Assembly (NCBI RefSeq): GCF_000260965.1
Contig: NC_017856.1
Span: 1,410,001-1,442,000, forward strand
DNA from: Methylophaga frappieri
GTDB taxonomy: Bacteria > Pseudomonadota > Gammaproteobacteria > Nitrosococcales > Methylophagaceae
Direction of reading: 5' to 3'
Length of the DNA stretch: 32,000 nucleotides
The notes beneath the pieces were generated by a model. It was not told the origin of the DNA, did no database searches, and worked only from the letters and a program-made list of their open reading frames with translations. Below are positions 22,170 through 32,000 of this stretch, piece after piece (positions within the stretch are counted from its first letter, which is position 1; every line of letters begins with the position of its first letter). A program made the translations under genes and the position numbers.

Positions 22170-23877
22170 GTTCATTTTCCGTTTGCAGCGGTATTGTCAC
22201 TTTGAGCTTCACACCCTGCCCTAATTGACTCTCTAACGTAAAGCTACCTCCCATACTTTGCGCTCTTTCCCGCATACCCAGCAAACCAAAATCAACATCT
22301 GAATGAAAATCATGTACTTCCATGCCTTTACCATCATCACAAATGCGGATTTCCAGATACGGCTCTTCGGCATCCTGCTCACGGGTAACACTCACTTCAA
22401 TACGACTGGCCTGAGCATGTCTGACCGCATTGGTAATTGCCTCCTGCACAACACGAAACACGGTCATATTACAGGCTTCGTTCAGGCCGGATACGGCATC
22501 ATCAATTGTCATATCAAACTGGATTTCCGGCTGCCGCTCACGCCAATTTTTGATCGCTTCTTCCAGCGTCGCTTTCAGCCCCAGATCATCCAGCGGACTT
22601 GGCCGCAAACGGGTAATCATATTATGCACAACATCATAGATATGACTGGCGGTATCAATGATCGCCTGAGCACTTTTGAATAACTTGGGCTCGGTTTCCA
22701 AAGTGCGGTTTCGAATCAAAACCGCATCCGTTTTGATCGCCGTCAAACATTGACCCAGTTCATCGTGAAGTTCTCGCGCCAAATGTCGGCGCTCGGCTTC
22801 TTGTGCCTGCTCCAGATGCTTGGTCAATAGCCGGTTTTCATGCAATTGCGCTTTGGCTTTTTCTGCCTGCTTGTGCTGAGTGATATCTCTTAGAGTACAA
22901 ATGACCCCAATAATGCAACCATCGTTTTCCTGTAACGGCACGGTAGACATCAAAAGTGAGACAACCTCACCATTTGGTGTGACCAAACTGGTTTGCAGGT
23001 TTTCCACCGCCTGGCAGCCCTCAATGATACGAATAATCTGGCCACGATTTTCCTTTAATCCCAGCGCCGTTAACGATTCTCCCATCAACACCGGTGTTTG
23101 GTTCGCAAACAGCCTTTCAGCGGTGGCGTTACAGAAAGTAATGTAACCCGCATGATCCAAAGATAAAATGGCATCTCCAGACTGTTTTACCAGCGCTGCC
23201 AACCGGCGGTTTTCGACACTGCTAAGTTGTAACGCTTCGCCCATCCGGTTGAATGTCTGACTGATCTGATCCATCTCAGCCAACGAAAAATGTGGCAGGC
23301 GTAAATGCAAATCCCCGCGCTCCATACCCGACAGGGCATCCAGTAATCGCTGCAGGGGACGCATCAACCAGCCGACTCCCCAGTAAATCAACACCACGAC
23401 AAAGACAAAAATGACCAGTCCCAGCGCCATAATGTCTCGTATGTCCCGCCAGCGTTCGGCAATCTCCTGAATCGGCGCAGCATAGATAACCATGTGACCA
23501 TCGCCAAAGCGGCGCGACAAGGGACTGATTTCCGGAAACAATATTCTGACAAACCATCCCGGCGGCTGCTCTTTAATCCTGTTCTCAGGCTGGCCTTCAA
23601 ACATCAGTCCCTGCTCATCAAACATCAAAATATGCAGACTGCGCATCTCACTGAGCGCAATAACCAGCTCTTTCATATGCTCGCTGACGGGTCTATCACG
23701 ATTCAGCCGCGCTCCAGCCAGCGTCACCGTAATAATATGTGCGGTTGCATCCATGGTGTCTTGGACTTCAGACTTGACCGACTGACGCGCGTTGGAAATC
23801 AGCACCCAGGCACTTGCTAACACCGACAAAAACAGCAGCAGCGCAAAAAAAAGATTAACTTTTAACTTTAAACTCAT
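22156..23877 (-). CDS. Sensor histidine kinase (2 TM + periplasmic domain, HAMP, PAS, HisKA_3, HATPase_c)
   Basis: 573 aa. H-box RELHDELGQCLTAI. QEAITNAVRHAQAS ... DDGKGM ... FGLLGMRERA. PAS-like segment between HAMP and H-box (SGDAILSLDHAGYITFCNATAERLF...). ATGA overlap with the soxZ-like stop. Confidence 0.9.
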   Translation of the reverse strand: MSLKLKVNLFFALLLFLSVLASAWVLISNARQSVKSEVQDTMDATAHIITVTLAGARLNRDRPVSEHMKELVIALSEMRSLHILMFDEQGLMFEGQPENRIKEQPPGWFVRILFPEISPLSRRFGDGHMVIYAAPIQEIAERWRDIRDIMALGLVIFVFVVVLIYWGVGWLMRPLQRLLDALSGMERGDLHLRLPHFSLAEMDQISQTFNRMGEALQLSSVENRRLAALVKQSGDAILSLDHAGYITFCNATAERLFANQTPVLMGESLTALGLKENRGQIIRIIEGCQAVENLQTSLVTPNGEVVSLLMSTVPLQENDGCIIGVICTLRDITQHKQAEKAKAQLHENRLLTKHLEQAQEAERRHLARELHDELGQCLTAIKTDAVLIRNRTLETEPKLFKSAQAIIDTASHIYDVVHNMITRLRPSPLDDLGLKATLEEAIKNWRERQPEIQFDMTIDDAVSGLNEACNMTVFRVVQEAITNAVRHAQASRIEVSVTREQDAEEPYLEIRICDDGKGMEVHDFHSDVDFGLLGMRERAQSMGGSFTLESQLGQGVKLKVTIPLQTENEHGIE

Positions 23878-24191
23878 TGTACTGTGGTTTCAGCCGCCCC
23901 TTTGCCACCGGTGTTATCCACCCAGCGCAATTTGATTTTATCGCCAACGACGCCTCCCTGCAGCTGAAAGGCGAAGAAAGGATTACGTGAGGTTGCTGTG
24001 CCACATTTCACCGTCAGCACTTCAATCTCATTGCGCCAGAGTCGAATATCCTGAATAAACTTAGCCGGAATCAACTCTCCTTCCGTGTTTTCACCACGGC
24101 CCGTGTGCATGGGATGTGCTAATAAAATCCGAATCAGCGTGTCGCCATCATGCAGTTTGGCACGAATACGATCTTTGCCTTTCACCGCCAT
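23874..24191 (-). CDS. soxZ: SoxZ-like sulfur-carrier subunit
   Basis: IRAKLHDGDTLIRILLAHPMHTGRG ... PAKFIQDIRLWRNEIEVLTVKCGTATSRNPFFAFQL is the SoxZ fold pattern. TGATG overlap with soxY-like at 24191. Confidence 0.75.
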   Translation of the reverse strand: MAVKGKDRIRAKLHDGDTLIRILLAHPMHTGRGENTEGELIPAKFIQDIRLWRNEIEVLTVKCGTATSRNPFFAFQLQGGVVGDKIKLRWVDNTGGKGAAETTVQ

Positions 24192-24679
24192 CAGGCACAT
24201 CCTCCAATGTCAATCTCGACAAACCTTTTCGCAATGTATAACTGATTTTCTGCCCGGATCACGGCAATAATGTCTGCATCCTCAGCCACCTTAATCAGCG
24301 TTTTGAATGGCAACATAACCGCGCTATGCAGGGTCATACTCATCGCCAGCGGCGATGGATTTTTATCCACCAGCAAGGCAAGATGTTCAATATTTTTCAG
24401 CGTGGTGTTGACTTCAACCGGCACCGTCGCGCCATTCACGGCATAAGTCGGCGGCGCACCAACGGTGAAGCTGACACTGTCATCATCAATCGTTTCTGCT
24501 TGGCCAAGTAACGCTTTCAATGCATCTTCCAGCGTCTTCGCCGCAAAGGCTTCTCGCGGCCAATGTGCCAATACTTGCTTTGGCAGTAGCAGGCCACTAG
24601 CAGCGACACAGGCCAGTGTCGCTGCCGATACACCTTGCTTCAACCAATAACGGCGAGTTTTATCAAAATGGCTAGTCAT
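24191..24679 (-). CDS. soxY: SoxY-like sulfur-carrier subunit with Tat signal
   Basis: Twin-arginine motif TRRYWLKQG. C-terminus ...EIDIGGCA* places the carrier Cys near the C-terminus, whereas canonical SoxY ends GGCGG. ATGA overlap with the bepA-like stop. Confidence 0.75.
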   Translation of the reverse strand: MTSHFDKTRRYWLKQGVSAATLACVAASGLLLPKQVLAHWPREAFAAKTLEDALKALLGQAETIDDDSVSFTVGAPPTYAVNGATVPVEVNTTLKNIEHLALLVDKNPSPLAMSMTLHSAVMLPFKTLIKVAEDADIIAVIRAENQLYIAKRFVEIDIGGCA

Positions 24680-26124
24680 CGTTGTCTTTCCATCAGCGCC
24701 AGTTGGTCTTCCACTTGTTTAAGGCGTGAATTAATTCGTGCCTGTTGATAAGCATCGCCTTTGGCATGGTCCGCTGCAATACGCAACTGGTCTGCCGCCG
24801 CGGCGATTTGTCCAGACTGATAATACGCCTCTGCCAGCCAAAAATGTGACTGACTTCGGTTGCCCATTTGCTCATGTGCTTTGCCAAGTAAGCGATACAC
24901 TTCTTGTGAGTTTTCGCCAATATCGATCAGGCGTTGCAATAATTTCGCGGCTTGACTGGGCTGGCCTGTGCGTAACTGCAAATCAACTTGCTCCAATGTT
25001 AAGGCACGATCATCAGGATAAAGCCGCTGATTATCCTGATAAATTGCCAACGCCCTGCTGGTGTTTCCCACGGCAATTTCCAAATCGGCAAGGGTCAACT
25101 GATAACTGAGTCTATCGCCATCTTTTTCTACCAGCGGCATTAACGCTTTTCTCGCTTCGCTTGTTTGATTGGCTTTTAACAAGGCCCGTGCATAACCGTA
25201 TTGCAATACTTCCTGATCATGATCGTCTGAATTTTCTCGCCGTTTTTTTCGATATTCCTCCAGCGTGGCCTGCAAATCATCACTGGTCATCACCCGTAAT
25301 TTTTCGCGCATCAGATAGAACTGTTTGGTGTCGCGCTGATTGCTGACAGACGGATAATCTTCTGCTCGGGCACGCGTTTCAGCGATACGGGACCCCGTAA
25401 TCGGGTGAGTCCGCAAAAACTCCGGCACATGGGCGCCGCCATAAAAGCGACCCGCTACCTGTAATCGCTCAAAGAACCGCGGCATTGCATAAGGGTCAAA
25501 ACCCGCACTGACCAAGGTCTGCATGCCCAGACTATCCGCCTCCGCTTCGTGTGCCCGCGTGTAATTCAACTGCATTTGTACCGCGCCGCCCTGCACTGCC
25601 ATCATCGCGGCACTGCCGGCACTGGGATCAGCGATACCAAGCAGCGCAGCAGCGATCATAGCGGCTGTTAGCGGCACACTTAACCGCTCACTTTTTTCAT
25701 AACCACGCAAAATATGACGCTGGGTAACGTGAGCAATCTCATGCGCAATAACCGACGCCATTTCATCTTCGGTTTCGGCGGTCATCATTAACCCACTATG
25801 TACCCCCACAAATCCACCTGGTGCGGCAAACGCATTGATTGACGGATCTTCGACCATAAAAAAAGTATACGGTAAGGCTGGCTGATCACTGGCTGCCGCG
25901 AGCCGATAACCCAGACTGCGCACATAATCCTGCACTTCCGGATCGGCAACAAAGTCGACCTGTCGCTGCAATTGCCAATAAAAACTCTGGCCAACCTGAT
26001 ACTCCTCAATTGGAGACACCAACTCGCCGGCACTGTCCCCCATTTCAGGCAACTGAATATTCAGATTGGCCTGGGTGCCTGGTATGACCAGAAACAAAAT
26101 CAAACTGATAATGTGTTTTTTCAT
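24676..26124 (-). CDS. bepA: Periplasmic M48 zinc metalloprotease with C-terminal TPR domain (BepA/YfgC-like)
   Basis: 482 aa. Signal peptide MKKHIISLILFLVIPGTQA. LPEMGDSAG ... INAFAAPGGFVGVHSGL ... HEIAHVTQRH (HExxH) ... EAEADSLG, collinear with E. coli BepA. TPR-like C-terminal half. Confidence 0.85.
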   Translation of the reverse strand: MKKHIISLILFLVIPGTQANLNIQLPEMGDSAGELVSPIEEYQVGQSFYWQLQRQVDFVADPEVQDYVRSLGYRLAAASDQPALPYTFFMVEDPSINAFAAPGGFVGVHSGLMMTAETEDEMASVIAHEIAHVTQRHILRGYEKSERLSVPLTAAMIAAALLGIADPSAGSAAMMAVQGGAVQMQLNYTRAHEAEADSLGMQTLVSAGFDPYAMPRFFERLQVAGRFYGGAHVPEFLRTHPITGSRIAETRARAEDYPSVSNQRDTKQFYLMREKLRVMTSDDLQATLEEYRKKRRENSDDHDQEVLQYGYARALLKANQTSEARKALMPLVEKDGDRLSYQLTLADLEIAVGNTSRALAIYQDNQRLYPDDRALTLEQVDLQLRTGQPSQAAKLLQRLIDIGENSQEVYRLLGKAHEQMGNRSQSHFWLAEAYYQSGQIAAAADQLRIAADHAKGDAYQQARINSRLKQVEDQLALMERQR

Positions 26125-26237
26125 AACGCGTTTAGACTTGGCCCAATAAGCGCGGTTCCAAAAAACTCGCCATGCGAAAAATAACTGATACGTTTATCAT
26201 GGCCCCTTGTTTTCTAGAATTATTCGGAGACAGCAGT

Positions 26238-26474
26238 ATGTCAGATTTTGCTGCAGAAATTGATACCTCCGGGCTCAATTGCCCCCTACCGGTTCTCAAG
26301 GCCCGTCAAGCATTAGCGGAACTGACAACAGGCCAACAGTTACATCTAATCGCCACGGATAAAGGTGCAGCTAAAGATATTCCTGCGTTTTGCAAAATGA
26401 CCGGAAATGCGCTGATTGACAGCAGTGAAACCGACGACAAACTGCACTTTATCATCGAAAAAGGCGGCATCTGA
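26238..26474 (+). CDS. TusA/SirA-family sulfurtransferase
   Basis: 78 aa from ATG 26238 (GGAGA at 26226-30). Active-site motif LNCPLPVLKA (CPxP). Confidence 0.8.
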   Translation: MSDFAAEIDTSGLNCPLPVLKARQALAELTTGQQLHLIATDKGAAKDIPAFCKMTGNALIDSSETDDKLHFIIEKGGI

Positions 26475-26938
26475 TGACTAAAAAAATGGCGATCATTGCC
26501 AGCAAAGGCACGCTGGATGGGGCTTACCCCCCATTTTTACTAGCATCAACCGCGGCAGCACTTGGTTTCGAAGCCAAAATCTTTTTTACCTTTTACGGCC
26601 TACAACTTCTTAAAAAAGACTTAAGCCCAAAAGTCTCCCCACTAGGCAATCCTGCCATGCCAATGCCTGTGCCAATGCCAAATTTATTGCAGATTTTGCC
26701 GGGGGTCGAAGCCTTTGCCAGTTGGATGATGCGGCGGAAATTAAAACAAAAAGGCGTCGCCAGCCTGACCGAACTACGCACTATCTGTTTGGACTCTAAT
26801 GTCGAGCTGATTGCCTGCCAAATGACGGTCGATCTGTTTGACTTCAAAAACCACGATTTTATTGATGGTATCAGCCATGGCGGCGCCGCAACCTTTCTGG
26901 CTTTTGCCAGCGAGGCCGATATTACCCTTTATATCTGA
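26474..26938 (+). CDS. DsrE/DsrF/DsrH-like family protein
   Basis: 154 aa. MAIIASKGTLDGAYPPFLLASTAAALGFEAKIFFTFYGL ... ELIACQMT (candidate active Cys). TGATG coupling with the tusA-like gene. Confidence 0.65.
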   Translation: MTKKMAIIASKGTLDGAYPPFLLASTAAALGFEAKIFFTFYGLQLLKKDLSPKVSPLGNPAMPMPVPMPNLLQILPGVEAFASWMMRRKLKQKGVASLTELRTICLDSNVELIACQMTVDLFDFKNHDFIDGISHGGAATFLAFASEADITLYI

Positions 26939-26958
26939 TCTTAAAAACGAGGCCCGGC

Positions 26959-27585
26959 ATGCAATTTATCTGGAAAACATTTCTCAAAGGACTGGCGGCC
27001 TTATTGCCAGTGGGCCTGACGCTTTACATCATATACTGGTTAGCCCTGTCTGCAGAAAAAGCGGTTAGCCCTATTCTAAAAGCCATTTTGCCTGAGCATC
27101 TGTATTGGCCGGGAATGGGATTATTGGCTGGTATTGGTTTGATTTTTGCCGTTGGTATCGCCGTTAACGCTTGGTTGATTAAACGCCTGTTCGACTTGGG
27201 TGAATCCCTGCTCGAACGTATACCACTGGTTAAATCCATTCATGGCGCCTTACGCGACTTTATGCATTTCTTTTCGCGTGACAAACAACGTGAAAATCTC
27301 AATCATGCGGTGGCCGTTACTATTAATGGCGTTCACCTGATAGGGTTTCAGGTACGTGACAATATTCACGGCTTACTGGAAAACGAAGAAGATACCGAAG
27401 ATCGAGTAGCCGTCTACCTGCCGATGAGTTATCAAATTGGCGGATACACGGTATTGATACCTCGCAATCAGGTGCAAGCCCTAGAACTAGGCACTGAAGA
27501 TGCCATGCGTTGGATTCTGACGGCCGGCCTCTCTACTAGTGATAAACACTTAGAAAGATCGCCCATCATACAAACCCCAGACTAA
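26959..27585 (+). CDS. DUF502-family membrane protein
   Basis: 208 aa. Two N-terminal TM helices and the LLERIPLVKSIHGALRDF motif typical of DUF502. Confidence 0.75.
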   Translation: MQFIWKTFLKGLAALLPVGLTLYIIYWLALSAEKAVSPILKAILPEHLYWPGMGLLAGIGLIFAVGIAVNAWLIKRLFDLGESLLERIPLVKSIHGALRDFMHFFSRDKQRENLNHAVAVTINGVHLIGFQVRDNIHGLLENEEDTEDRVAVYLPMSYQIGGYTVLIPRNQVQALELGTEDAMRWILTAGLSTSDKHLERSPIIQTPD

Positions 27586-27592
27586 ACCGGCA

Positions 27593-27642
27593 TGGCGTCC
27601 CCGGCAGGAGTCGAACCTGCGACCTTCCCCTTAGGAGACGGA
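27593..27642 (-). tRNA. 3' fragment (anticodon loop to CCA) of a tRNA-Arg(CCU)-like gene. Truncated, acting as an att-type junction.
   Basis: The minus strand reads ..CTCCTAA GGGGA AGGTC GCAGG TTCGACT CCTGC CGGGGAC G CCA: T-arm, acceptor 3' strand, discriminator and CCA. No GTCCCCG 5' acceptor strand and no D-arm exist upstream, where there is only AT-rich sequence. Confidence 0.7.
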
Positions 27643-27821
27643 TTTAACCTTTTGTTTTATATAGGGTGAATTTGCAACACACTGATTTTTAAGTCACTTA
27701 GTATAACGTCATATCACACTAAGTCACTACTAATCATCGTGTTAGTGTCCCAAAATTGTCCCAAATCCAAACCGGCGAATGAAGCACATGAAAACTGGTT
27801 AAAAGTAAAGCTGCGGAAAAA

Positions 27822-28283
27822 TTAATTGTGTTTTTTTAACTCCGACTGCAGTTCGTTGAGTTGAGCTTGAAACTTGTCTCTGCGCTCGCGGAACTCTTTC
27901 ACTCTTTTTAGTAAGTAGGGTGATGGCTCTTTTGCAATGCTGTTCTCAAGAGCAACTATTTCGACCTCGTATTTACTAATTTGCTTTTGTGAGAATGCTA
28001 TTTCAGTTTTTAAATCACGAACTGCCCCTACCTCAGGGTTAAGTACAGACATAACTGGCCCCAAAGAGATAACAACTACAAATAAGATCACTAAATAACT
28101 GAAAGCAGATAAACCACCACCTGTCGTATACATAGTGGTTCCACAGTACGGGCATATATGCTCTATTTTCTTTTTCGTGAAGAATGAGCCTGTGTGCCAA
28201 AGCCTCGGTGTTGCTCGCTTTCCACAGTTCTTACACTCAACTCTTTGATCTGACATATTCAAAGTCCTTTTTTGATAGTTCAT
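27822..28283 (-). CDS. Hypothetical zinc-ribbon / single-TM / coiled-coil protein
   Basis: 153 aa (or 144 aa from M10). CKNCG...x22...CPYCG cysteine pairs. Hydrophobic segment LSAFSYLVILFVVVISLGPVMSVL. C-terminal heptad-rich, charged 70 aa. AGGA 5 nt upstream of ATG 28283. Confidence 0.6.
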   Translation of the reverse strand: MNYQKRTLNMSDQRVECKNCGKRATPRLWHTGSFFTKKKIEHICPYCGTTMYTTGGGLSAFSYLVILFVVVISLGPVMSVLNPEVGAVRDLKTEIAFSQKQISKYEVEIVALENSIAKEPSPYLLKRVKEFRERRDKFQAQLNELQSELKKHN

Positions 28284-28334
28284 CCATGTCCTGACCTAAA
28301 GTCAGTTCGAAATAGTCATTATTTCCGTCATAAA

Positions 28335-29831
28335 TCAAACTGCCGCAGCTTGCTTATCATCGTCAGTATTCATATCCGTGTCACACTCGACCCAGCGAAA
28401 ATTGTCACTTACAGCGATATCATCAAGAGCTGGTTGAATGACAAACTTGGAGGAACTTGTATTGTGAGCAGGCAGAGGCTCTTTCAATGCCTCCAGAACC
28501 TGTATTGAACTGAGAGAATATTCAAAACAGCTATATAGCCGAGATAGTATTTTATAAACCAAGAGATCCATTTGAGAGTCACTTGGTATTTGCTTTTCAA
28601 CTCCATACCTTCTGTGATTTAACACCTCAAAAATTAGTGTATAGGCTGCGTTTTTAACCCCTGTCCCGCCGTACCCCCATGAATAGTGGTTATCCAGTCT
28701 CTTTTTTGGAGCACGGCAAGCTATTAACTCTGGTGAGCCACCATTGATTATTTTTACAATTCTTCTTGGATTGGATGATTCTTCAGGAAGTAAACGAAAC
28801 GTTAACAAATCACGACTTTCAAAACTAATTGGTTCACTCAATGAGTTTTTCATCCTAATGTGATCTTTGTGAACTTTAGGCACAAATACTTCTTCAGACG
28901 CACCGCTCACTCTGAAAGTAGCGTTAATCTGCTCAGAATCAACGGTCAGAGATTCGAGCGGTTCATTTAATTGCTTGTTGCCTGACAAAATTGCTTGTAA
29001 TAATTTTTCGCTGTTCAATATCTCGTCAAACCCACCGTGAGTACTGTCATCCCGATATAGTTCTACCGCGTCGTTCTCGGGTAACAGCAAAAACCTACCA
29101 ATCGCATTAAGCAAATTTGGGCATGTCCCCATGTACTCCGCTTTATCCGAATAGTCGAGTGGGAAGGTCAAACCGAAGCCGAAATTTTGTCTGTATAAGT
29201 TTGCTGTAACTATTAGCGTTGAGCACAAAAGATCTATATACCAATCAAGGCAATCGCGCTCCAGAAACGTTTTTTGCTGAGCAACACAACAGAGATAAAG
29301 TGGTATTGCTGAATGGCCGTGCGTCTGTAACTTAGATAGAGAAATATCTTGTAGCTTGCTAACTAAATTACATTCATTACCTTCAATGATTGAAGAGATT
29401 TCCCAGCGGGCCGCAACTCTCTCCAAGTAACCGCGAGCAAAGTTTTTTTGTTCGTCAGTACTGAATAAGGTGGGATGTCTGTTTGGCTGAATTGAGCAAC
29501 AATAATAGTCAATGGCATTTAAAAGGGAATGTAGCGGTTCATCACTGTAATCTGTTTTGAGCCATTTAGCGGCTGAAGGACAAGCTTTCAATAGCCGATC
29601 AAGCTTTTCTCCTTTCGGGTAGTTCGACTTATTAACCCATTTCTTGATCGTTTTTACTTCAGGGGGTGTCAGTCCAGCATCCATGTGAAGTGTTTCAATC
29701 CCCTCGCACAAATCAGTCTCAGTCACTTCACCCACATAGCCTTTCTCTGATAGCTCAAGGGTTAAATGTTTTAACCAGATCGCTTGCCTGATTTCCCACG
29801 TAGGTAAATATTGGATAGCTCGTCGTTCCAT
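28335..29831 (-). CDS. Hypothetical 498-aa protein with no recognisable catalytic motif
   Basis: ORF 28335..29855. Codon 29855 is TTG. ATG 29831 (AAAGGA upstream) is preferred. Possible XRE-like HTH around GLTPPEVKTIKKWVNKSNYPKGEKLDRLLKA. C-terminal SWGYGGTGVKNAAYTLIFEVL motif. 51 nt upstream of, and co-oriented with, the zinc-ribbon gene. Confidence 0.65.
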   Translation of the reverse strand: MERRAIQYLPTWEIRQAIWLKHLTLELSEKGYVGEVTETDLCEGIETLHMDAGLTPPEVKTIKKWVNKSNYPKGEKLDRLLKACPSAAKWLKTDYSDEPLHSLLNAIDYYCCSIQPNRHPTLFSTDEQKNFARGYLERVAARWEISSIIEGNECNLVSKLQDISLSKLQTHGHSAIPLYLCCVAQQKTFLERDCLDWYIDLLCSTLIVTANLYRQNFGFGLTFPLDYSDKAEYMGTCPNLLNAIGRFLLLPENDAVELYRDDSTHGGFDEILNSEKLLQAILSGNKQLNEPLESLTVDSEQINATFRVSGASEEVFVPKVHKDHIRMKNSLSEPISFESRDLLTFRLLPEESSNPRRIVKIINGGSPELIACRAPKKRLDNHYSWGYGGTGVKNAAYTLIFEVLNHRRYGVEKQIPSDSQMDLLVYKILSRLYSCFEYSLSSIQVLEALKEPLPAHNTSSSKFVIQPALDDIAVSDNFRWVECDTDMNTDDDKQAAAV

Positions 29832-29954
29832 GATTATAAAAATCCTTTCTGTCAAGAAAATTAGCCAAATTTCTTAACTTTCGTAAATTCCTGTCTCCCA
29901 ATGCTAAGCGTTCATATCATCAACGGCAACTTTACAACACGTTGAGATAAGTCC

Positions 29955-30152
29955 ATGCATCAGAAAGATATCAAGTTACTGACCGTGCCAGAATTGGCCG
30001 AGATTCTGCACATGACCGCAGCAACAATCAGAAACAGGTTAAGTCGTGGTGAGCCGATGCCACCATCTATCAAAGTTGGGCACAGACGCTTATTCCCTGA
30101 AAGAGAGCTAAACGACTGGATTATGTCGAAGATTGATTCCATCGAATCATAA
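29955..30152 (+). CDS. alpA: AlpA/excisionase-family HTH DNA-binding protein
   Basis: 65 aa. LLTVPELAEILHMTAATIRNRLSRGEPMPPSIKVGHRRLFPERELNDWI is the MerR-superfamily excisionase/AlpA pattern. Confidence 0.8.
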   Translation: MHQKDIKLLTVPELAEILHMTAATIRNRLSRGEPMPPSIKVGHRRLFPERELNDWIMSKIDSIES

Positions 30153-30191
30153 GTCTTTTTTGAGCATTCTTTACTTAGTGACGCTCACGTT

Positions 30192-31067
30192 TTGACTTCT
30201 CAAACTGAAGCTCTTAGCGCAGAAGAGAAAAATGTCCATAGGTTTATAACTCAAGCCTCAGACATCAACTCAATAAGTGCTCAAGAAGCAGGGAGTCGGG
30301 CATATATGCCTAGGTCATTAGTTTTGGCGACACTTCCCCACAGTAAAAGACAAGATCCTTTTTTTGTTCGCAAAAATGGGAATTTCAGCCTTGCACTAAT
30401 GGCACACCCCGATATCGGCCTTCCCTACGGAAGCTTGCCCAGACTTTTGATTGCATTTCTAACTACAGAAGCTGTAAGAACGAACAGTCGTGATATTGAG
30501 CTTGGTAAATCACTATCTGACTTTCTTACCAAACTGAAAGAAACACCCAACGGAGGGCCAGGGGGAGGCATTACCAGGGTAAAAGAGCAAATGAGACGTT
30601 TGTTCTCAACTCGAATTTCTTGCACATACACTAACAAGAATCTCGTAAGTGGAACTAACTTAGATATTGTTGATAGCTATGATCTGTGGTGGCACCCTAC
30701 ATCTCCAGATCAATCGTCCCTATTCAAAAGTCATGTATGCCTAAATGAAGGTTTTTTCAAAGAAGTGACCCAAAGACCCGTTCCAATTGATATGAGAGCC
30801 CTAATGGCACTTAAAAAGTCTCCTCTGGAAGTGGATATCTATTGTTGGCTGACATATAGAATGAGCTACCTTGAGCGTACAATAGTGATCTCATGGCAAG
30901 ACCTTCAAATACAAATAGGAAGCTCCTACGCAAGAATGAGAGACTTCAAAGCAAAGTTCATTCAACATCTGAATCGAGTTTTGGCCGTATACCCTTCTGC
31001 AAGAGTGAGGGCTGTTAAGAACGGTTTAGAGCTAAAACCAAGTTTGACGCACATTCCTAAACGCTGA
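30192..31067 (+). CDS. repA: Plasmid/ICE-type replication initiator (RepA-like)
   Basis: 291 aa. LPYGSLPRLLIAFLTTEAVRTNSRDIELGKSLSDFLTKL resembles the conserved core of 'plasmid-encoded RepA' proteins found on ICEs and plasmids. Iterons lie immediately downstream. The start is uncertain (TTG at 30192, no clear SD). Confidence 0.7.
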   Translation: MTSQTEALSAEEKNVHRFITQASDINSISAQEAGSRAYMPRSLVLATLPHSKRQDPFFVRKNGNFSLALMAHPDIGLPYGSLPRLLIAFLTTEAVRTNSRDIELGKSLSDFLTKLKETPNGGPGGGITRVKEQMRRLFSTRISCTYTNKNLVSGTNLDIVDSYDLWWHPTSPDQSSLFKSHVCLNEGFFKEVTQRPVPIDMRALMALKKSPLEVDIYCWLTYRMSYLERTIVISWQDLQIQIGSSYARMRDFKAKFIQHLNRVLAVYPSARVRAVKNGLELKPSLTHIPKR

Positions 31068-31119
31068 TTTTCACAAGCCAGACTCATGTGGACAAAGTTG
31101 TTAGTGATGAAAGATATCC

Positions 31120-31201
31120 ACGCATTAACGGTCGCGTTAGAAGCTTATTTTTACGCATTAACGGTCGCGCTAAGTTCGTTTTTTACGCATTAACGGTCGC
31201 G
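31120..31201 (+). repeat. Three direct 17-bp iterons, ACGCATTAACGGTCGCG
   Basis: Exact copies at 31120-31136, 31153-31169 and 31185-31201 (spacing 33 and 32 bp, about 3 helical turns). Copies 2 and 3 share an extended TTTTTACGCATTAACGGTCGCGC. Confidence 0.9.
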
Positions 31202-31253
31202 CCATTAACCCTCAAAGCCATACTAGGCAAGGCTTTCCAGCCCCCTCCTATAG

Positions 31254-31279
31254 TATTACCTGTAGTTATTACCTGTAGT
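31254..31279 (+). repeat. Tandem 13-bp direct repeat, TATTACCTGTAGT x2
   Basis: 31254-31266 and 31267-31279 are identical and adjacent. Confidence 0.85.
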
Positions 31280-31294
31280 TAGTTCGCTAAATTA

Positions 31295-31303
31295 TGTGGA
31301 TAA
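31295..31303 (-). promoter_or_regulatory. Consensus DnaA box
   Basis: TGTGGATAA is the reverse complement of TTATCCACA, a perfect 9/9 match. It lies 94 bp from the last iteron. Confidence 0.6.
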
Positions 31304-31400
31304 CTAAAAGTTTTCTCGAAATCTGCTCAGATCAAACGTGTTTGGTTTTCATATGATCAGAATAATTTCTGAGCATCGGTCTACCAATACTGTGGGGATA

Positions 31401-31680
31401 GAGTGGACAATTTACGTGTAGCGTGTGTGATAGACGAAATAGGCGTGTGTAATAGCCGAAGCTATTCACTGCTTATGCAGGATGACATTGCAGATCTCAC
31501 TCATACTAACTCCACAACATTGTTTTTACAGGGTTTACACGGTATCAGGGAGCTACAATCTCAAGATTAGGAGTAACCATATTTAGCTCCAATAAAGCCA
31601 AATAAACCAACAAAACGTGTGTGATAGACGAAAAAGCGTGTGTAATAGACGACGCTATGAGTGGACAAATTCCGTGTTGT
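31401..31680 (+). repeat. Second repeat family: four 18-bp (G/A)CGTGTGT(G/A)ATAG(A/C)CGA(A/C) sites in two pairs, plus two GAGTGGACAA motifs
   Basis: 18-mers at 31421-31438, 31443-31460, 31615-31632 and 31636-31653 (21-22 bp apart within each pair). GAGTGGACAA at 31401-31410 and 31659-31668. Confidence 0.8.
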
Positions 31681-31855
31681 AAATGAATCTAGTGACCGAA
31701 CAGAGCTATGTTATTACCAGAAACTGTAGTTTTATTTGTCGAAAACTACAGACTCAATGCAAGAGCATGGTAAACATGTACGAGGTTATTAGTGTTAGTA
31801 CCAAAGGTGCTTAGACCACGATGTTTCATAGTGATAAATAAATTGGAATTGAACT

Positions 31856-31898
31856 AGGCTGCCATCCATCTAGTTAGGTAAATTATGGATGGCAGCCT
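31856..31898. repeat. Perfect 14-bp inverted repeat (hairpin or operator)
   Basis: AGGCTGCCATCCAT (31856-31869) / ATGGATGGCAGCCT (31885-31898) with a 15-nt loop. No U-tract on either strand. Confidence 0.8.
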
Positions 31899-31929
31899 AA
31901 TACACTGTTAGGCAACAATAAGTCCATTT

Positions 31930-32000
31930 ATGACAAAAATAGAATATACAAATTTGCAAGATCTTGATCAGGGTGAATTGCTTTCAGTCTTAAATAAAGA
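31930..32000 (+). CDS. Partial ORF of unknown function, running off the window
   Basis: ATG at 31930 gives MTKIEYTNLQDLDQGELLSVLNK... Only 23 codons are visible. Confidence 0.3.
   Translation, partial: MTKIEYTNLQDLDQGELLSVLNK

What the first reader, a model, noticed from the sequence alone, without database searches (positions are those of the whole stretch)
27822..29855. Orphan two-gene cargo operon between the att junction and alpA: candidate new anti-phage or satellite-control system
Seen in sequence:
- Two co-oriented minus-strand genes 51 nt apart sit in the AT-richer DNA just inside the tRNA-fragment junction. They are transcribed divergently from alpA-repA.
- Gene 1 (~498 aa) has no Walker A, HExxH, HxH, DEDD or other catalytic signature I can recognise. 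It has a possible XRE-like HTH near aa 50-95 and a C-terminal SWGYGGTG..AAYTLIFEVL motif.
- Gene 2 (144-153 aa) combines a 4-Cys zinc ribbon (CKNCG / CPYCG), one TM helix and a long coiled coil.

Established knowledge:
- The att/int-proximal accessory slots of phage satellites and integrative islands are hot spots for anti-phage systems.
- Small membrane proteins are frequent abortive-infection effectors.
- Large divergent HTH proteins opposite the excision/replication module can be Stl-like master repressors that sense helper-phage proteins.

Inference: this is either a sensor (498 aa) plus membrane effector defence pair, or an island master repressor with a membrane partner. I cannot assign either protein to a characterised family.
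Basis: partly seen in the sequence, partly recalled or inferred. Interest (0 to 1): 0.85.

Follow-up and report, generated by a model that had tools for sequence, protein, structure and literature searches.

The report
Mobile-element regulator beside unrelated cargo gene
The two neighbouring genes are not a system: the large one is a rare, uncharacterised probable DNA-binding regulator that always sits back-to-back with the excision gene alpA, and the small membrane gene is unrelated cargo brought next to it by a deletion.

Summary
Two minus-strand genes (498 aa; 144-153 aa) lie just inside a tRNA-Arg(CCT) 3' fragment, in AT-richer DNA of Methylophaga frappieri, divergent from alpA-repA.

The "two-gene system" reading fails. 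In 12 related loci (17-85% identity) the 498-aa homologue is always divergent from alpA plus a replication initiator. The zinc-ribbon gene never accompanies it there. A near-identical copy of that gene lies downstream of a type III restriction-modification cassette, on a contig that does not reach gene 1. In the window gene 1 ends with the last six codons of res, joined across a 9-nt microhomology. The 51-nt spacing is therefore a deletion scar.

Gene 1 has a TP901-1 CI/XRE-like helix-turn-helix, a central all-helical domain and a C-terminal DUF6166 domain. A confident model (pLDDT 81) has no PDB or viral match. The family has only 15 representatives among 1.84 billion proteins. Relatives carry relaxase, coupling protein and type IV secretion genes, so the element is conjugative or mobilisable, not a phage satellite.

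Best reading: gene 1 is the element's master regulator, probably a repressor of alpA. Gene 2 is an orphan cargo gene in a defence hotspot. Interest is moderate.

The parts
27593..27644 (-). 3' fragment (anticodon loop to CCA) of tRNA-Arg(CCT). It is the att repeat that marks the left end of the integrated element.
   Evidence: No tRNA is called in the window. The stretch is 85% identical to the 3' 52 nt of the tRNA-Arg(CCT) of L002 and is aligned.
27645..27768 (.). Conserved terminal arm of the element, with a tandem TTTGGGAC repeat at 27747-27765. It is a candidate binding region for integrase or an excision factor.
   Evidence: It is 70-89% identical to the element ends of L001, L004, L006 and L007. 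TTGGGACAATTTTGGGACAC is exact in L007, L008, L019 and L020, 12-50 nt after the gene 1 homologue's stop.
27822..28256 (-). Gene 2, 144 aa (the ORF extends to 28283, 153 aa). It has an N-terminal 4-Cys zinc ribbon, one TM helix and a C-terminal coiled-coil-like helix. It is an orphan cargo gene.
   Evidence: Only 3 relatives were found among 5.8 billion proteins. Against L011 it shows 11 synonymous and 6 non-synonymous codon changes, with all Cys kept. It has no PADLOC, Pfam or PHROG assignment.
28335..28356 (-). Deletion scar. The last six codons plus stop of a type III res gene (KQAAAV*) now form the end of gene 1. The 9-nt microhomology TAAGCAAGC lies at 28348-28356.
   Evidence: The blastn break-points are window 27592-28356 = L011 and 28348-31746 = L006. 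Res of L011 ends ...LIKQAAAV.
28335..29831 (-). Gene 1 (Q7C_1417), 498 aa. Domains: a CI/XRE-like HTH (aa ~35-95), an all-alpha central domain (aa ~99-310), a DUF6166 alpha/beta domain (aa ~340-455) and a disordered, non-conserved tail (aa 457-498).
   Evidence: The AF2 model has pLDDT 81 and pTM 0.84. The divergent pairing with alpA is conserved in 12 loci.
29832..29954 (.). Divergent control region between gene 1 and alpA. It contains an imperfect dyad, GTCAAGAAAATT / AAATTTCTTAAC, at 29851-29878. This is the candidate operator region.
   Evidence: The region is conserved between the window and L002 although the two proteins are only 46% identical. The window dyad alone is within chance (67 of 300 shuffles). 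Dyads in L014 and L017 exceed all 300 shuffles.
29955..30152 (+). alpA-like excisionase/regulator (HTH_17). It is the conserved divergent partner of gene 1.
   Evidence: E 1.2e-9. It is 47-100% identical across all loci.
30192..31067 (+). Plasmid-type replication initiator RepA (RepA_C).
   Evidence: E 3e-31. It is about 50% identical to plasmid RepA proteins. Other family members have unrelated initiators in its place.
31115..31657 (.). Iteron-like direct repeats downstream of repA, a probable origin of replication: 3 x 23 nt at 31115-31202 and 4 x 21 nt at 31422-31657.

Best explanation
The region holds two unrelated genes at the int-distal end of a plasmid-like integrative conjugative or mobilisable element inserted in tRNA-Arg(CCT).

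**Gene 1 (498 aa)** is a backbone gene. It pairs a CI/XRE-type helix-turn-helix with a family-specific all-helical domain and a C-terminal DUF6166 domain.
- Shown: it is always transcribed divergently from alpA.
- Inferred: it is the element's master regulator, most likely a maintenance repressor. It would bind the 123-bp divergent region as an oligomer and keep the alpA-repA (excision, replication, transfer) operon silent. It would be inactivated when its C-terminal domains sense a signal, by analogy with CI/MOR of TP901-1, ImmR/xis of ICEBs1 and Stl/str of SaPIs.
- Not shown: DNA binding, repression and the signal.

**Gene 2 (144 aa)** is independent cargo in the variable slot between gene 1 and the element's terminal arm.
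- Shown: in relatives that slot holds type III R-M, a PDC-S15 gene, or nothing.
- Shown: gene 2 came to lie 51 nt from gene 1 when a 94-aa-gene/mod/res cassette was deleted across a 9-nt microhomology.
- Inferred: its topology is a cytoplasmic zinc ribbon, one TM helix, and a coiled coil outside.
- Its function is unknown. A stand-alone membrane exclusion or defence factor is the most plausible guess.
For: **Synteny**
- Gene 1 homologues at 85, 79, 46, 39, 37, 29 and 23% identity all lie divergent from an HTH_17 (alpA) gene.
- L018-L020 add three more loci with the same arrangement.
- AlpA stays 47-100% identical while the initiator switches family (RepA_C, RPA, HTH_36, none).
- In L015 a tyrosine integrase follows directly.

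**HTH**
- The N-terminal profile hits the TP901-1 CI N-terminal domain first (E 0.0014-0.008). LexA-like XRE, P22 C2 and HigA2 follow at weaker E-values, interspersed with unrelated chains.
- P0023 hits HTH_3 at the homologous residues (E 5.6e-4).
- Five of 19 members hit phrog_3037, annotated as a transcriptional repressor.
- Foldseek gives weak matches to HTH_XRE, PlcR and ComR.

**DUF6166**
- 17 of 19 members match, five of them above the gathering score.

**No sign of an enzyme**
- Across the wider family only Y387 and G389 are invariant. M1, P72, W197, L206, G235, W385 and G386 are kept in at least 90% of members. No conserved catalytic polar residues are seen.

**Deletion scar**.

**Slot contents**
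- L001, L007 and L020 are empty.
- L004 holds R-M plus PDC-S15 (E 6e-69).
- L006 holds R-M plus a 218-aa gene.
- L011 holds R-M plus gene 2.

**Element type**: relaxase/MobC, TrbL and T4CP in relatives, and a plasmid-type RepA.
Against: - Every HTH hit is below curated thresholds. The window protein itself gives no HTH_3 hit, and hhalign against a small XRE alignment gave probability 5%.
- The dyad in the window's intergenic region is no better than chance.
- No σ70-like promoter passed the scan in the 123-bp region.
- A confident model finds no structural relative, so the central and DUF6166 domains say nothing about function.
- Conserved synteny shows a backbone role, not specifically repression.
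- For gene 2 the only functional evidence is guilt by association.
Confidence: 0.55

Rival explanations
1. Gene 1 and gene 2 form a two-gene anti-phage system, a cytoplasmic sensor plus a membrane effector, carried as cargo.
For: - The genes are co-oriented, 51-78 nt apart, with no terminator-like site between them.
- They lie at an att-proximal position that holds defence genes in relatives.
- Neither matches a known family.
Against: - No pairing is seen in any other locus that carries a gene 1 homologue.
- In L011 gene 2 lies after res. In the relatives that carry both gene 1 and this cassette (L004-L006), the cassette separates gene 1 from that slot by about 5.3 kb.
- The adjacency is a deletion scar that also rewrote the C-terminus of gene 1.
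- Gene 1 co-varies with alpA, not with cargo.
- PADLOC gives no hit for gene 1. For gene 2 it gives only weak LmuB hits over the zinc-ribbon-to-coiled-coil stretch.
Confidence: 0.04
2. Gene 1 is a backbone protein with a non-regulatory role. Examples are an establishment or anti-defence factor, an exclusion or maintenance protein, or a replication or transfer accessory. Its weak HTH would then be incidental or used for another DNA transaction.
For: - The HTH evidence is marginal.
- At 498 aa the protein is unusually large for a repressor, and two thirds of it has no recognisable fold.
- It is the terminal gene next to att, a position where leading-region or establishment genes can lie.
- DUF6166 has an invariant glycine-rich WGYxG loop before a helix. 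From general structural knowledge such a loop could bind a phosphate or nucleotide ligand.
Against: - It is conserved with alpA rather than with the initiator, the T4CP or the relaxase, all of which vary or are missing.
- Divergent transcription from a shared short control region is the classic switch layout.
- No conserved catalytic residues are seen.
Confidence: 0.25
3. Gene 1 is an Stl-like master repressor of a phage satellite and is inactivated by a helper-phage protein.
For: - The layout is that of stl/str-xis-rep in SaPIs: a divergent HTH protein with a large C-terminal domain opposite alpA-rep.
- alpA is the induction switch of Gram-negative PICIs (background knowledge).
Against: - Relatives encode relaxase, MobC, TrbL, a VirB5-like protein and a T4CP, and no capsid, packaging or primase-helicase genes were seen.
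- No relative was found in 2.9 million IMG/VR contigs or in 50,697 phage records.
- RepA is of plasmid type, with iterons.
Confidence: 0.06
4. Gene 2 is a stand-alone membrane defence or superinfection-exclusion gene. This concerns gene 2 only and is compatible with the best explanation.
For: - It occupies the same slot as PDC-S15 in L004 and lies downstream of type III R-M in L011.
- It appears to be under purifying selection (11 synonymous against 6 non-synonymous codon changes, Cys kept).
- It is a small membrane protein with a zinc ribbon.
Against: - It has no homology to any defence family. The weak LmuB, Snf7 and Rz hits are zinc-ribbon or coiled-coil noise.
- Only 3 relatives exist, and one of them (P0012) replaces the coiled coil with two TM helices.
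- No structure model was made.
Confidence: 0.2

Closest known systems
CI repressor of lactococcal phage TP901-1 (N-terminal domain; PDB 3zhm, 5a7l, 6tri, 3zhi)
   Same: It is the best sequence match of the gene 1 N-terminal profile: profile positions 33-98 against chain residues 13-78, covering the GI..tLs.wvN...P....l..L.k...vs..WL pattern. From background knowledge, CI also sits in a divergent genetic switch (CI/MOR).
   Different: - E is only 0.0014.
- TP901-1 CI is about 180 aa with a helical oligomerisation C-terminus.
- Gene 1 is 498 aa with an unrelated central domain and DUF6166.
- Its partner is an AlpA-type excisionase, not MOR.
- The host element is conjugative, not a phage.
ImmR of ICEBs1, SetR of SXT, and Stl of SaPIs (master repressors of integrative elements)
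   Same: - The gene is divergent from the excision/replication operon and sits near int/att (an integrase lies directly next to it in L015).
- The protein has an N-terminal HTH followed by a larger C-terminal part.
   Different: - No sequence or fold similarity was detected.
- There is no ImmA-like protease partner and no S24 peptidase domain.
- The inducing signal is unknown.
- Function was not tested.
RRNPP regulators (PlcR, ComR)
   Same: They have an XRE-type HTH followed by a large all-helical sensor domain. They appear among the top Foldseek matches (5jub, 3u3w).
   Different: - The matches are not significant (E 1.5-1.8, probability 0.05-0.06, TM 0.11).
- No TPR repeats were recognised.
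- Gene 1 has an additional alpha/beta DUF6166 domain.
Pfam DUF6166 (PF19663)
   Same: The C-terminal domain carries the invariant WGYxG loop and the following helix. 17 of 19 family members match and five exceed the 27-bit cutoff.
   Different: - The window protein itself scores only 12.7 bits.
- DUF6166 has no known function, no solved structure and no paper in the searched library.
- The Pfam model is a 93-position domain, whereas here it is the C-terminal domain of a 450-545-aa protein.
Small zinc-ribbon membrane proteins (TIGR04104 cxxc_20_cxxc, DUF983, LITAF-like) and i-spanin Rz (for gene 2)
   Same: The architecture is CxxC...CxxC followed by a TM helix (TIGR04104, E 9e-4). A type-II membrane anchor with a coiled coil is reminiscent of Rz (phrog_739, E 0.0097).
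   Different: - All hits are far below the cutoffs.
- There is no o-spanin, holin or endolysin nearby.
- Relative P0012 lacks the coiled coil.

Membership tests
Known anti-phage defence systems (PADLOC-DB 2.0) | A significant match of a component protein to a defence-system HMM | tested here: not met
   Gene 1 and 18 relatives give no hit apart from one Cas3-HD match at E 0.03. Gene 2 gives only LmuB at E 1.8e-4 over the zinc-ribbon-to-coiled-coil stretch.
Two-gene system (conserved operon) | The two genes are neighbours in most genomes that carry either one | tested here: not met
   None of the gene 1 loci with readable downstream DNA carries gene 2. In L011 gene 2 lies after res, on a contig that does not reach gene 1.
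XRE/CI-type HTH (Pfam HTH_3, PF01381) | A match above the gathering score (23 bits) or a significant profile/structure match to an XRE domain | tested here: inconclusive
   - The window protein gives no Pfam hit. P0023 scores 20.3 bits (E 5.6e-4) at the homologous residues.
- The N-terminal profile against PDB puts TP901-1 CI first (E 0.0014), with other XRE repressors among the weaker hits.
- hhalign against four XRE domains typed in from memory gives E 0.0074 and probability 5%.
- Foldseek gives HTH_XRE at probability 0.60.
DUF6166 (PF19663) | A match above the gathering score (27 bits) | tested here: inconclusive
   - The window protein scores 12.7 bits (E 0.14), below the cutoff.
- Full-length homologues P0016 (36.3), P0021 (32.7), P0022 (32.6), P0020 (30.8) and P0024 (30.0) pass it.
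- 17 of 19 members match at E <= 0.1.
- Membership therefore rests on homology to members that pass.
Master repressor of an integrative element (functional class: CI, ImmR, SetR, Stl) | The gene is divergent from the excision/replication operon across relatives | tested here: met
   12 loci at 17-85% identity.
Master repressor of an integrative element (functional class: CI, ImmR, SetR, Stl) | Operator sites in the shared control region | tested here: inconclusive
   - The window dyad at 29851-29878 is within chance (67 of 300 shuffles).
- Dyads in L014 and L017 exceed all shuffles.
- A TAAAGAA-like half-site occurs at a similar position in 4 of 6 loci.
Master repressor of an integrative element (functional class: CI, ImmR, SetR, Stl) | Represses excision/replication genes and is inactivated by an inducing signal | not testable with these tools
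   This needs reporter fusions, EMSA and deletion or induction experiments.
Phage satellite (PICI/SaPI-like) | Carries helper-phage exploitation genes (packaging or capsid redirection, primase-rep) and no conjugation genes, and is found with phages | tested here: not met
   - Relatives carry relaxase/MobC, TrbL, a VirB5-like protein and a T4CP.
- There are no relatives in IMG/VR or GenBank phages.
- The M. frappieri island beyond 32000 was not seen.
Integrative conjugative/mobilisable element (ICE/IME) | An att repeat at a tRNA, a tyrosine integrase, a relaxase with a T4CP (IME), and a T4SS as well (ICE) | tested here: met
   - The att fragment is in the window.
- An integrase is present in L015, a T4CP in L001 and L014-16, and relaxase/MobC/TrbL in L004-L006. 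L004-L006 are 88% identical to the window over 28348-31746.
- These features are met in relatives. The window itself ends before these genes.

The most novel reading that the evidence does not exclude
The HTH/helical/DUF6166 protein is a new class of signal-sensing master switch for plasmid-like integrative elements. Its structurally unmatched central domain and the glycine-rich WGYxG loop of DUF6166 would detect a small molecule or a protein from a helper conjugative element or an invader, and so release alpA-driven excision, replication and transfer. That would give DUF6166 its first function. Separately, gene 2 would be a new single-gene membrane defence or exclusion factor.
Probability: 0.2. 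Interest if true: 0.6.

Novelty: new variant of a known kind. Interest (0 to 1): 0.35.

Why it matters
**If the regulator reading is right**
- It defines the control switch (gene 1/alpA) of a small, previously undescribed family of tRNA-Arg-integrated, plasmid-like mobile elements. The loci with recognisable host DNA lie in the same sulfur-oxidation gene neighbourhood as in Methylophaga.
- It gives a first functional context to DUF6166 and to a confidently modelled fold with no solved relative.

**A methodological lesson**
- Tight spacing of two orphan genes at an island end can be a recent deletion scar rather than an operon.
- Here the deletion even rewrote a protein's C-terminus with six codons of a restriction enzyme.

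**For defence-gene discovery**
- The slot between gene 1 and the terminal arm is a compact, well-delimited cargo hotspot. Depending on the relative it holds type III R-M, PDC-S15, a possible HEPN gene, gene 2, or nothing.
- That makes gene 2 a cheap candidate to test, but on association only.

Tried and rejected
**Family scans**
- Pfam, NCBIfam, PHROGs and PADLOC scans of both proteins gave no assignment.

**Structure**
- The first AlphaFold run, with 9 sequences, was poor (pLDDT 44), and its Foldseek search was meaningless.
- The second run, with 19 sequences, was confident (pLDDT 81, pTM 0.84). It still gave no significant PDB or BFVD match.
- Sequence-profile searches of PDB with the full-length and DUF6166 profiles gave only noise.

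**Homologue searches**
- The third homologous-protein run, with the wider alignment, returned nothing new because of the candidate cap.
- The GTDB genome-contig scan found no relative, not even M. frappieri. Looking up P0001 by exact sequence also failed. Absence from that collection is therefore not evidence, and the rest of the island beyond 32000 could not be fetched.

**Literature and RNA**
- Searches for DUF6166/PF19663 and for a described M. frappieri island found nothing relevant.
- Rfam found no RNA family in the region.

**Regulatory DNA**
- The σ70 promoter scan found nothing in the divergent region and no more sites than the shuffles gave.
- The window dyad is not significant.

**Weak hits dismissed**
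- An Rz-like spanin or CwlO-like role for gene 2 was rejected. These are coiled-coil hits with no lysis genes nearby.
- The LmuB hit of gene 2 was rejected as zinc-ribbon/coiled-coil noise.
Full report
**Where this is.** The window is Methylophaga frappieri chromosome. The 498-aa protein is 100% identical to NCBI protein Q7C_1417.

**1. The observation**

All the described features exist.
- Gene 1 is 28335-29831 (-), 498 aa from the ATG. The longer TTG ORF of 506 aa is not supported, because all homologues align from the ATG.
- The gene 2 ORF is 27822-28283 (-), 153 aa, which gives the 51-nt gap. The supported start is the ATG at 28256 (144 aa). NCBI uses that start. In the 93%-identical locus L011 an extra A breaks the frame of the upstream ATG.
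- GC drops from 0.47-0.52 to 0.39-0.42 at about 27500.
- ARAGORN finds no tRNA gene in the window. However, 27593-27644 is the 3' part, anticodon loop to CCA, of a tRNA-Arg(CCT) that is called in related locus L002.
- alpA (HTH_17, E 1e-9) and repA (RepA_C, E 3e-31) are divergent from gene 1.
- Gene 2 has CKNCG and CPYCG, one hydrophobic span (Kyte-Doolittle peak 2.41) and a charged helical C-terminus.
- Neither protein is assigned by Pfam, NCBIfam, PHROGs or PADLOC.

**2. The two genes are not a pair**

Gene 1 belongs to a very small family.
- The word-indexed search found 9 proteins among 5.8 billion.
- An exhaustive HMM search found 15 representatives among 1.84 billion.

I read the surroundings of homologues at 85, 79, 46, 39, 37, about 30, 29 and 23% identity.
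- In every case the homologue is transcribed divergently from an HTH_17 (alpA) gene, which is followed by a replication initiator.
- In no case is a zinc-ribbon/TM gene next to it.

Downstream of the homologue there is one of three things.
- Nothing: in L001, L007 and L020 the conserved terminal arm with TTGGGACAATTTTGGGACAC follows within 12-50 nt.
- An integrase (L015).
- A cassette made of a 94-aa gene plus type III mod and res, followed by a further variable gene. In L004 that gene is PDC-S15/FRG (E 6e-69). In L006 it is a 218-aa protein with weak HEPN-like hits.

Gene 2 has only three relatives.
- The near-identical one (L011-L013) lies after res and directly before the terminal arm.
- That contig starts inside the 94-aa gene and does not reach gene 1.

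**3. The adjacency is a deletion scar**

- blastn shows window 27592-28356 collinear with L011 (92.7% identity), running from the end of res through gene 2 to att.
- Window 28348-31746 is collinear with L006 (88% identity), running from gene 1 to beyond repA.
- The two alignments overlap in 9 nt, TAAGCAAGC.
- In the three-way alignment the window follows L006 up to this microhomology, which in L006 lies 38 nt after the gene 1 stop. It then follows the last codons of res of L011.
- Res of L011 ends ...KQAAAV*, and so does the window's gene 1.
- The ancestral gene 1 stop (TAG in L006) is GAG in the window. The ORF therefore reads 17 codons further, to the res stop.
- This tail is unaligned in the family and has pLDDT below 50.
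- Because a piece of res coding sequence is present, the window state derives from a cassette-bearing ancestor by a deletion of about 5.3 kb, not the reverse.
- The genes may now be co-transcribed, since no terminator-like site lies between them. They are not an evolved operon.

**4. What gene 1 is**

With the 19-sequence alignment AlphaFold gives a confident model (pLDDT 81, pTM 0.84). It has three parts.
- Helices up to about residue 95.
- An all-helical block at about 99-310.
- An alpha/beta domain at about 340-455.

(a) The C-terminal domain is DUF6166.
- 17 of 19 members match and five exceed the 27-bit cutoff. The window protein alone scores 12.7 bits.
- Y387 and G389 of the WGYxG loop are the only fully invariant positions in the wide alignment. 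W385 and G386 are kept in at least 90% of members.
- DUF6166 has no solved structure and no literature in the searched library.

(b) The N-terminus looks like a CI/XRE helix-turn-helix.
- A profile of residues 1-118 finds the TP901-1 CI N-terminal domain first (four PDB sequences, E 0.0014-0.008, profile positions 33-98). A LexA-like XRE protein, P22 C2 and HigA2 follow at weaker E-values, interspersed with unrelated chains.
- Member P0023 matches HTH_3 at the homologous residues (E 5.6e-4).
- Five members weakly hit a PHROG repressor family.
- Foldseek lists an HTH_XRE protein (probability 0.6) and, non-significantly, PlcR and ComR.
- Each line is sub-threshold. Their convergence on one domain type at one position is what I rely on.

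(c) The whole model has no significant match in PDB or BFVD.

(d) No conserved catalytic-type residues exist across the family.

**5. What the element is**

- RepA is about 50% identical to plasmid RepA proteins. It is followed by iteron-like repeats.
- Relatives that are 88% identical to the window through 31746 carry TrbL, a VirB5-like protein, MobC and a relaxase.
- More distant relatives carry a TraG/TrwB coupling protein, and one carries a tyrosine integrase.
- No relative of gene 1 occurs in IMG/VR, GenBank phages or PLSDB plasmids.
- The element is therefore an integrative conjugative or mobilisable element, not a phage satellite.
- The part of the M. frappieri island beyond 32000 could not be fetched.

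**6. Mechanism proposed**

- Shown: the conserved unit is gene 1 back-to-back with alpA. AlpA stays 47-100% identical while the initiator changes family.
- Shown: the short control region is well conserved between the window and L002 although the proteins there are only 46% identical.
- Inferred: gene 1 is the element's master regulator, most likely the maintenance repressor of the alpA-rep operon. Its helical and DUF6166 domains would serve for oligomerisation and signal sensing. The model is the CI/MOR, ImmR/xis and Stl/str switches.

Candidate operators are weak evidence.
- The window dyad (29851-29878) is within chance.
- The dyads of L014 and L017 are not.
- A TAAAGAA-like half-site recurs in 4 of 6 loci.

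I put 0.55 on this overall reading. The 'not a pair' part taken alone I put at about 0.85.

**7. Gene 2**

- It is a real gene. Against L011 it shows 11 synonymous and 6 non-synonymous codon changes, none of the non-synonymous ones in the coiled coil, and all Cys are kept.
- The conserved module shared with P0012 is the zinc ribbon, then TMYTTGGGL, then the TM helix.
- Its slot is a defence hotspot. A stand-alone exclusion or defence role is plausible (about 0.2) but rests on association only.

**8. Verdict**

- The headline interpretation, a two-gene cargo system for anti-phage or satellite control, is not supported.
- This is a new variant of a known kind: a mobile-element switch regulator built from a rare, structurally unmatched HTH-DUF6166 protein.
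- Interest is moderate (0.35).

Noticed in passing
window 31115-31202 and 31422-31657: Iteron-like direct repeats lie downstream of repA: 3 x 23 nt at 32-33-nt spacing and 4 x 21 nt in two pairs. There is also a 20-nt inverted repeat at 31850-31904. This is a probable oriV, and perhaps oriT, in the ORF-poor stretch 31067-32000.
   Followed up: partly
window 27746-27765 (minus strand); L007 5460-5479; L020 11546-11565: The tandem motif TTGGGACAATTTTGGGACAC is exactly conserved at the element's terminal arm in loci whose gene 1 proteins are only 30-37% identical. It is a likely arm-type site for the integrase or AlpA.
   Followed up: partly
window 28335-28400: Gene 1 lost its ancestral stop (TAG in L006, GAG here) and now ends with six codons and the stop of a deleted type III res gene. 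It is a chimeric C-terminal tail created by deletion.
   Followed up: yes
L020 3969-8409: On the other side of alpA-rep this relative carries a 776-aa ATPase-like ORF and a 707-aa UvrD-like helicase ORF in tandem, which look Gabija-like by eye. No HMM check was run.
   Followed up: no
L001 1-3386: A relative of the element in the same chromosomal site carries an MmeI-type restriction-modification enzyme and a Fic protein at its far side, so it has further defence or toxin cargo.
   Followed up: no
L002 3125-3199: ARAGORN calls a complete tRNA-Arg(CCT) immediately after the gene 1 homologue, whereas the window has only the 3' half at the equivalent place. The att repeat may span the whole tRNA there, or that element may be oriented differently.
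   Followed up: no
L004/L005/L006 (e.g. L006 7844-8128): A conserved 94-aa ORF with no Pfam or PADLOC hit always precedes the type III mod gene. It may be a controller or accessory protein of the cassette.
   Followed up: no
window 23874-27585; L001, L007, L020: Elements of this family are inserted at one chromosomal site, next to a DUF502 gene (absent from L001 and not seen in L020), DsrE-like and TusA-like genes, an M48/TPR peptidase and soxYZ. This holds in several related metagenomic genomes, so the insertion site is conserved in this sulfur-oxidation neighbourhood.
   Followed up: no
Genome-contig collection / exact-sequence index: P0001 comes from an NCBI genome. Even so, the GTDB-representative scan found no relative and the exact-sequence lookup found no record. 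Absence in those two resources is not informative for this family.
   Followed up: no
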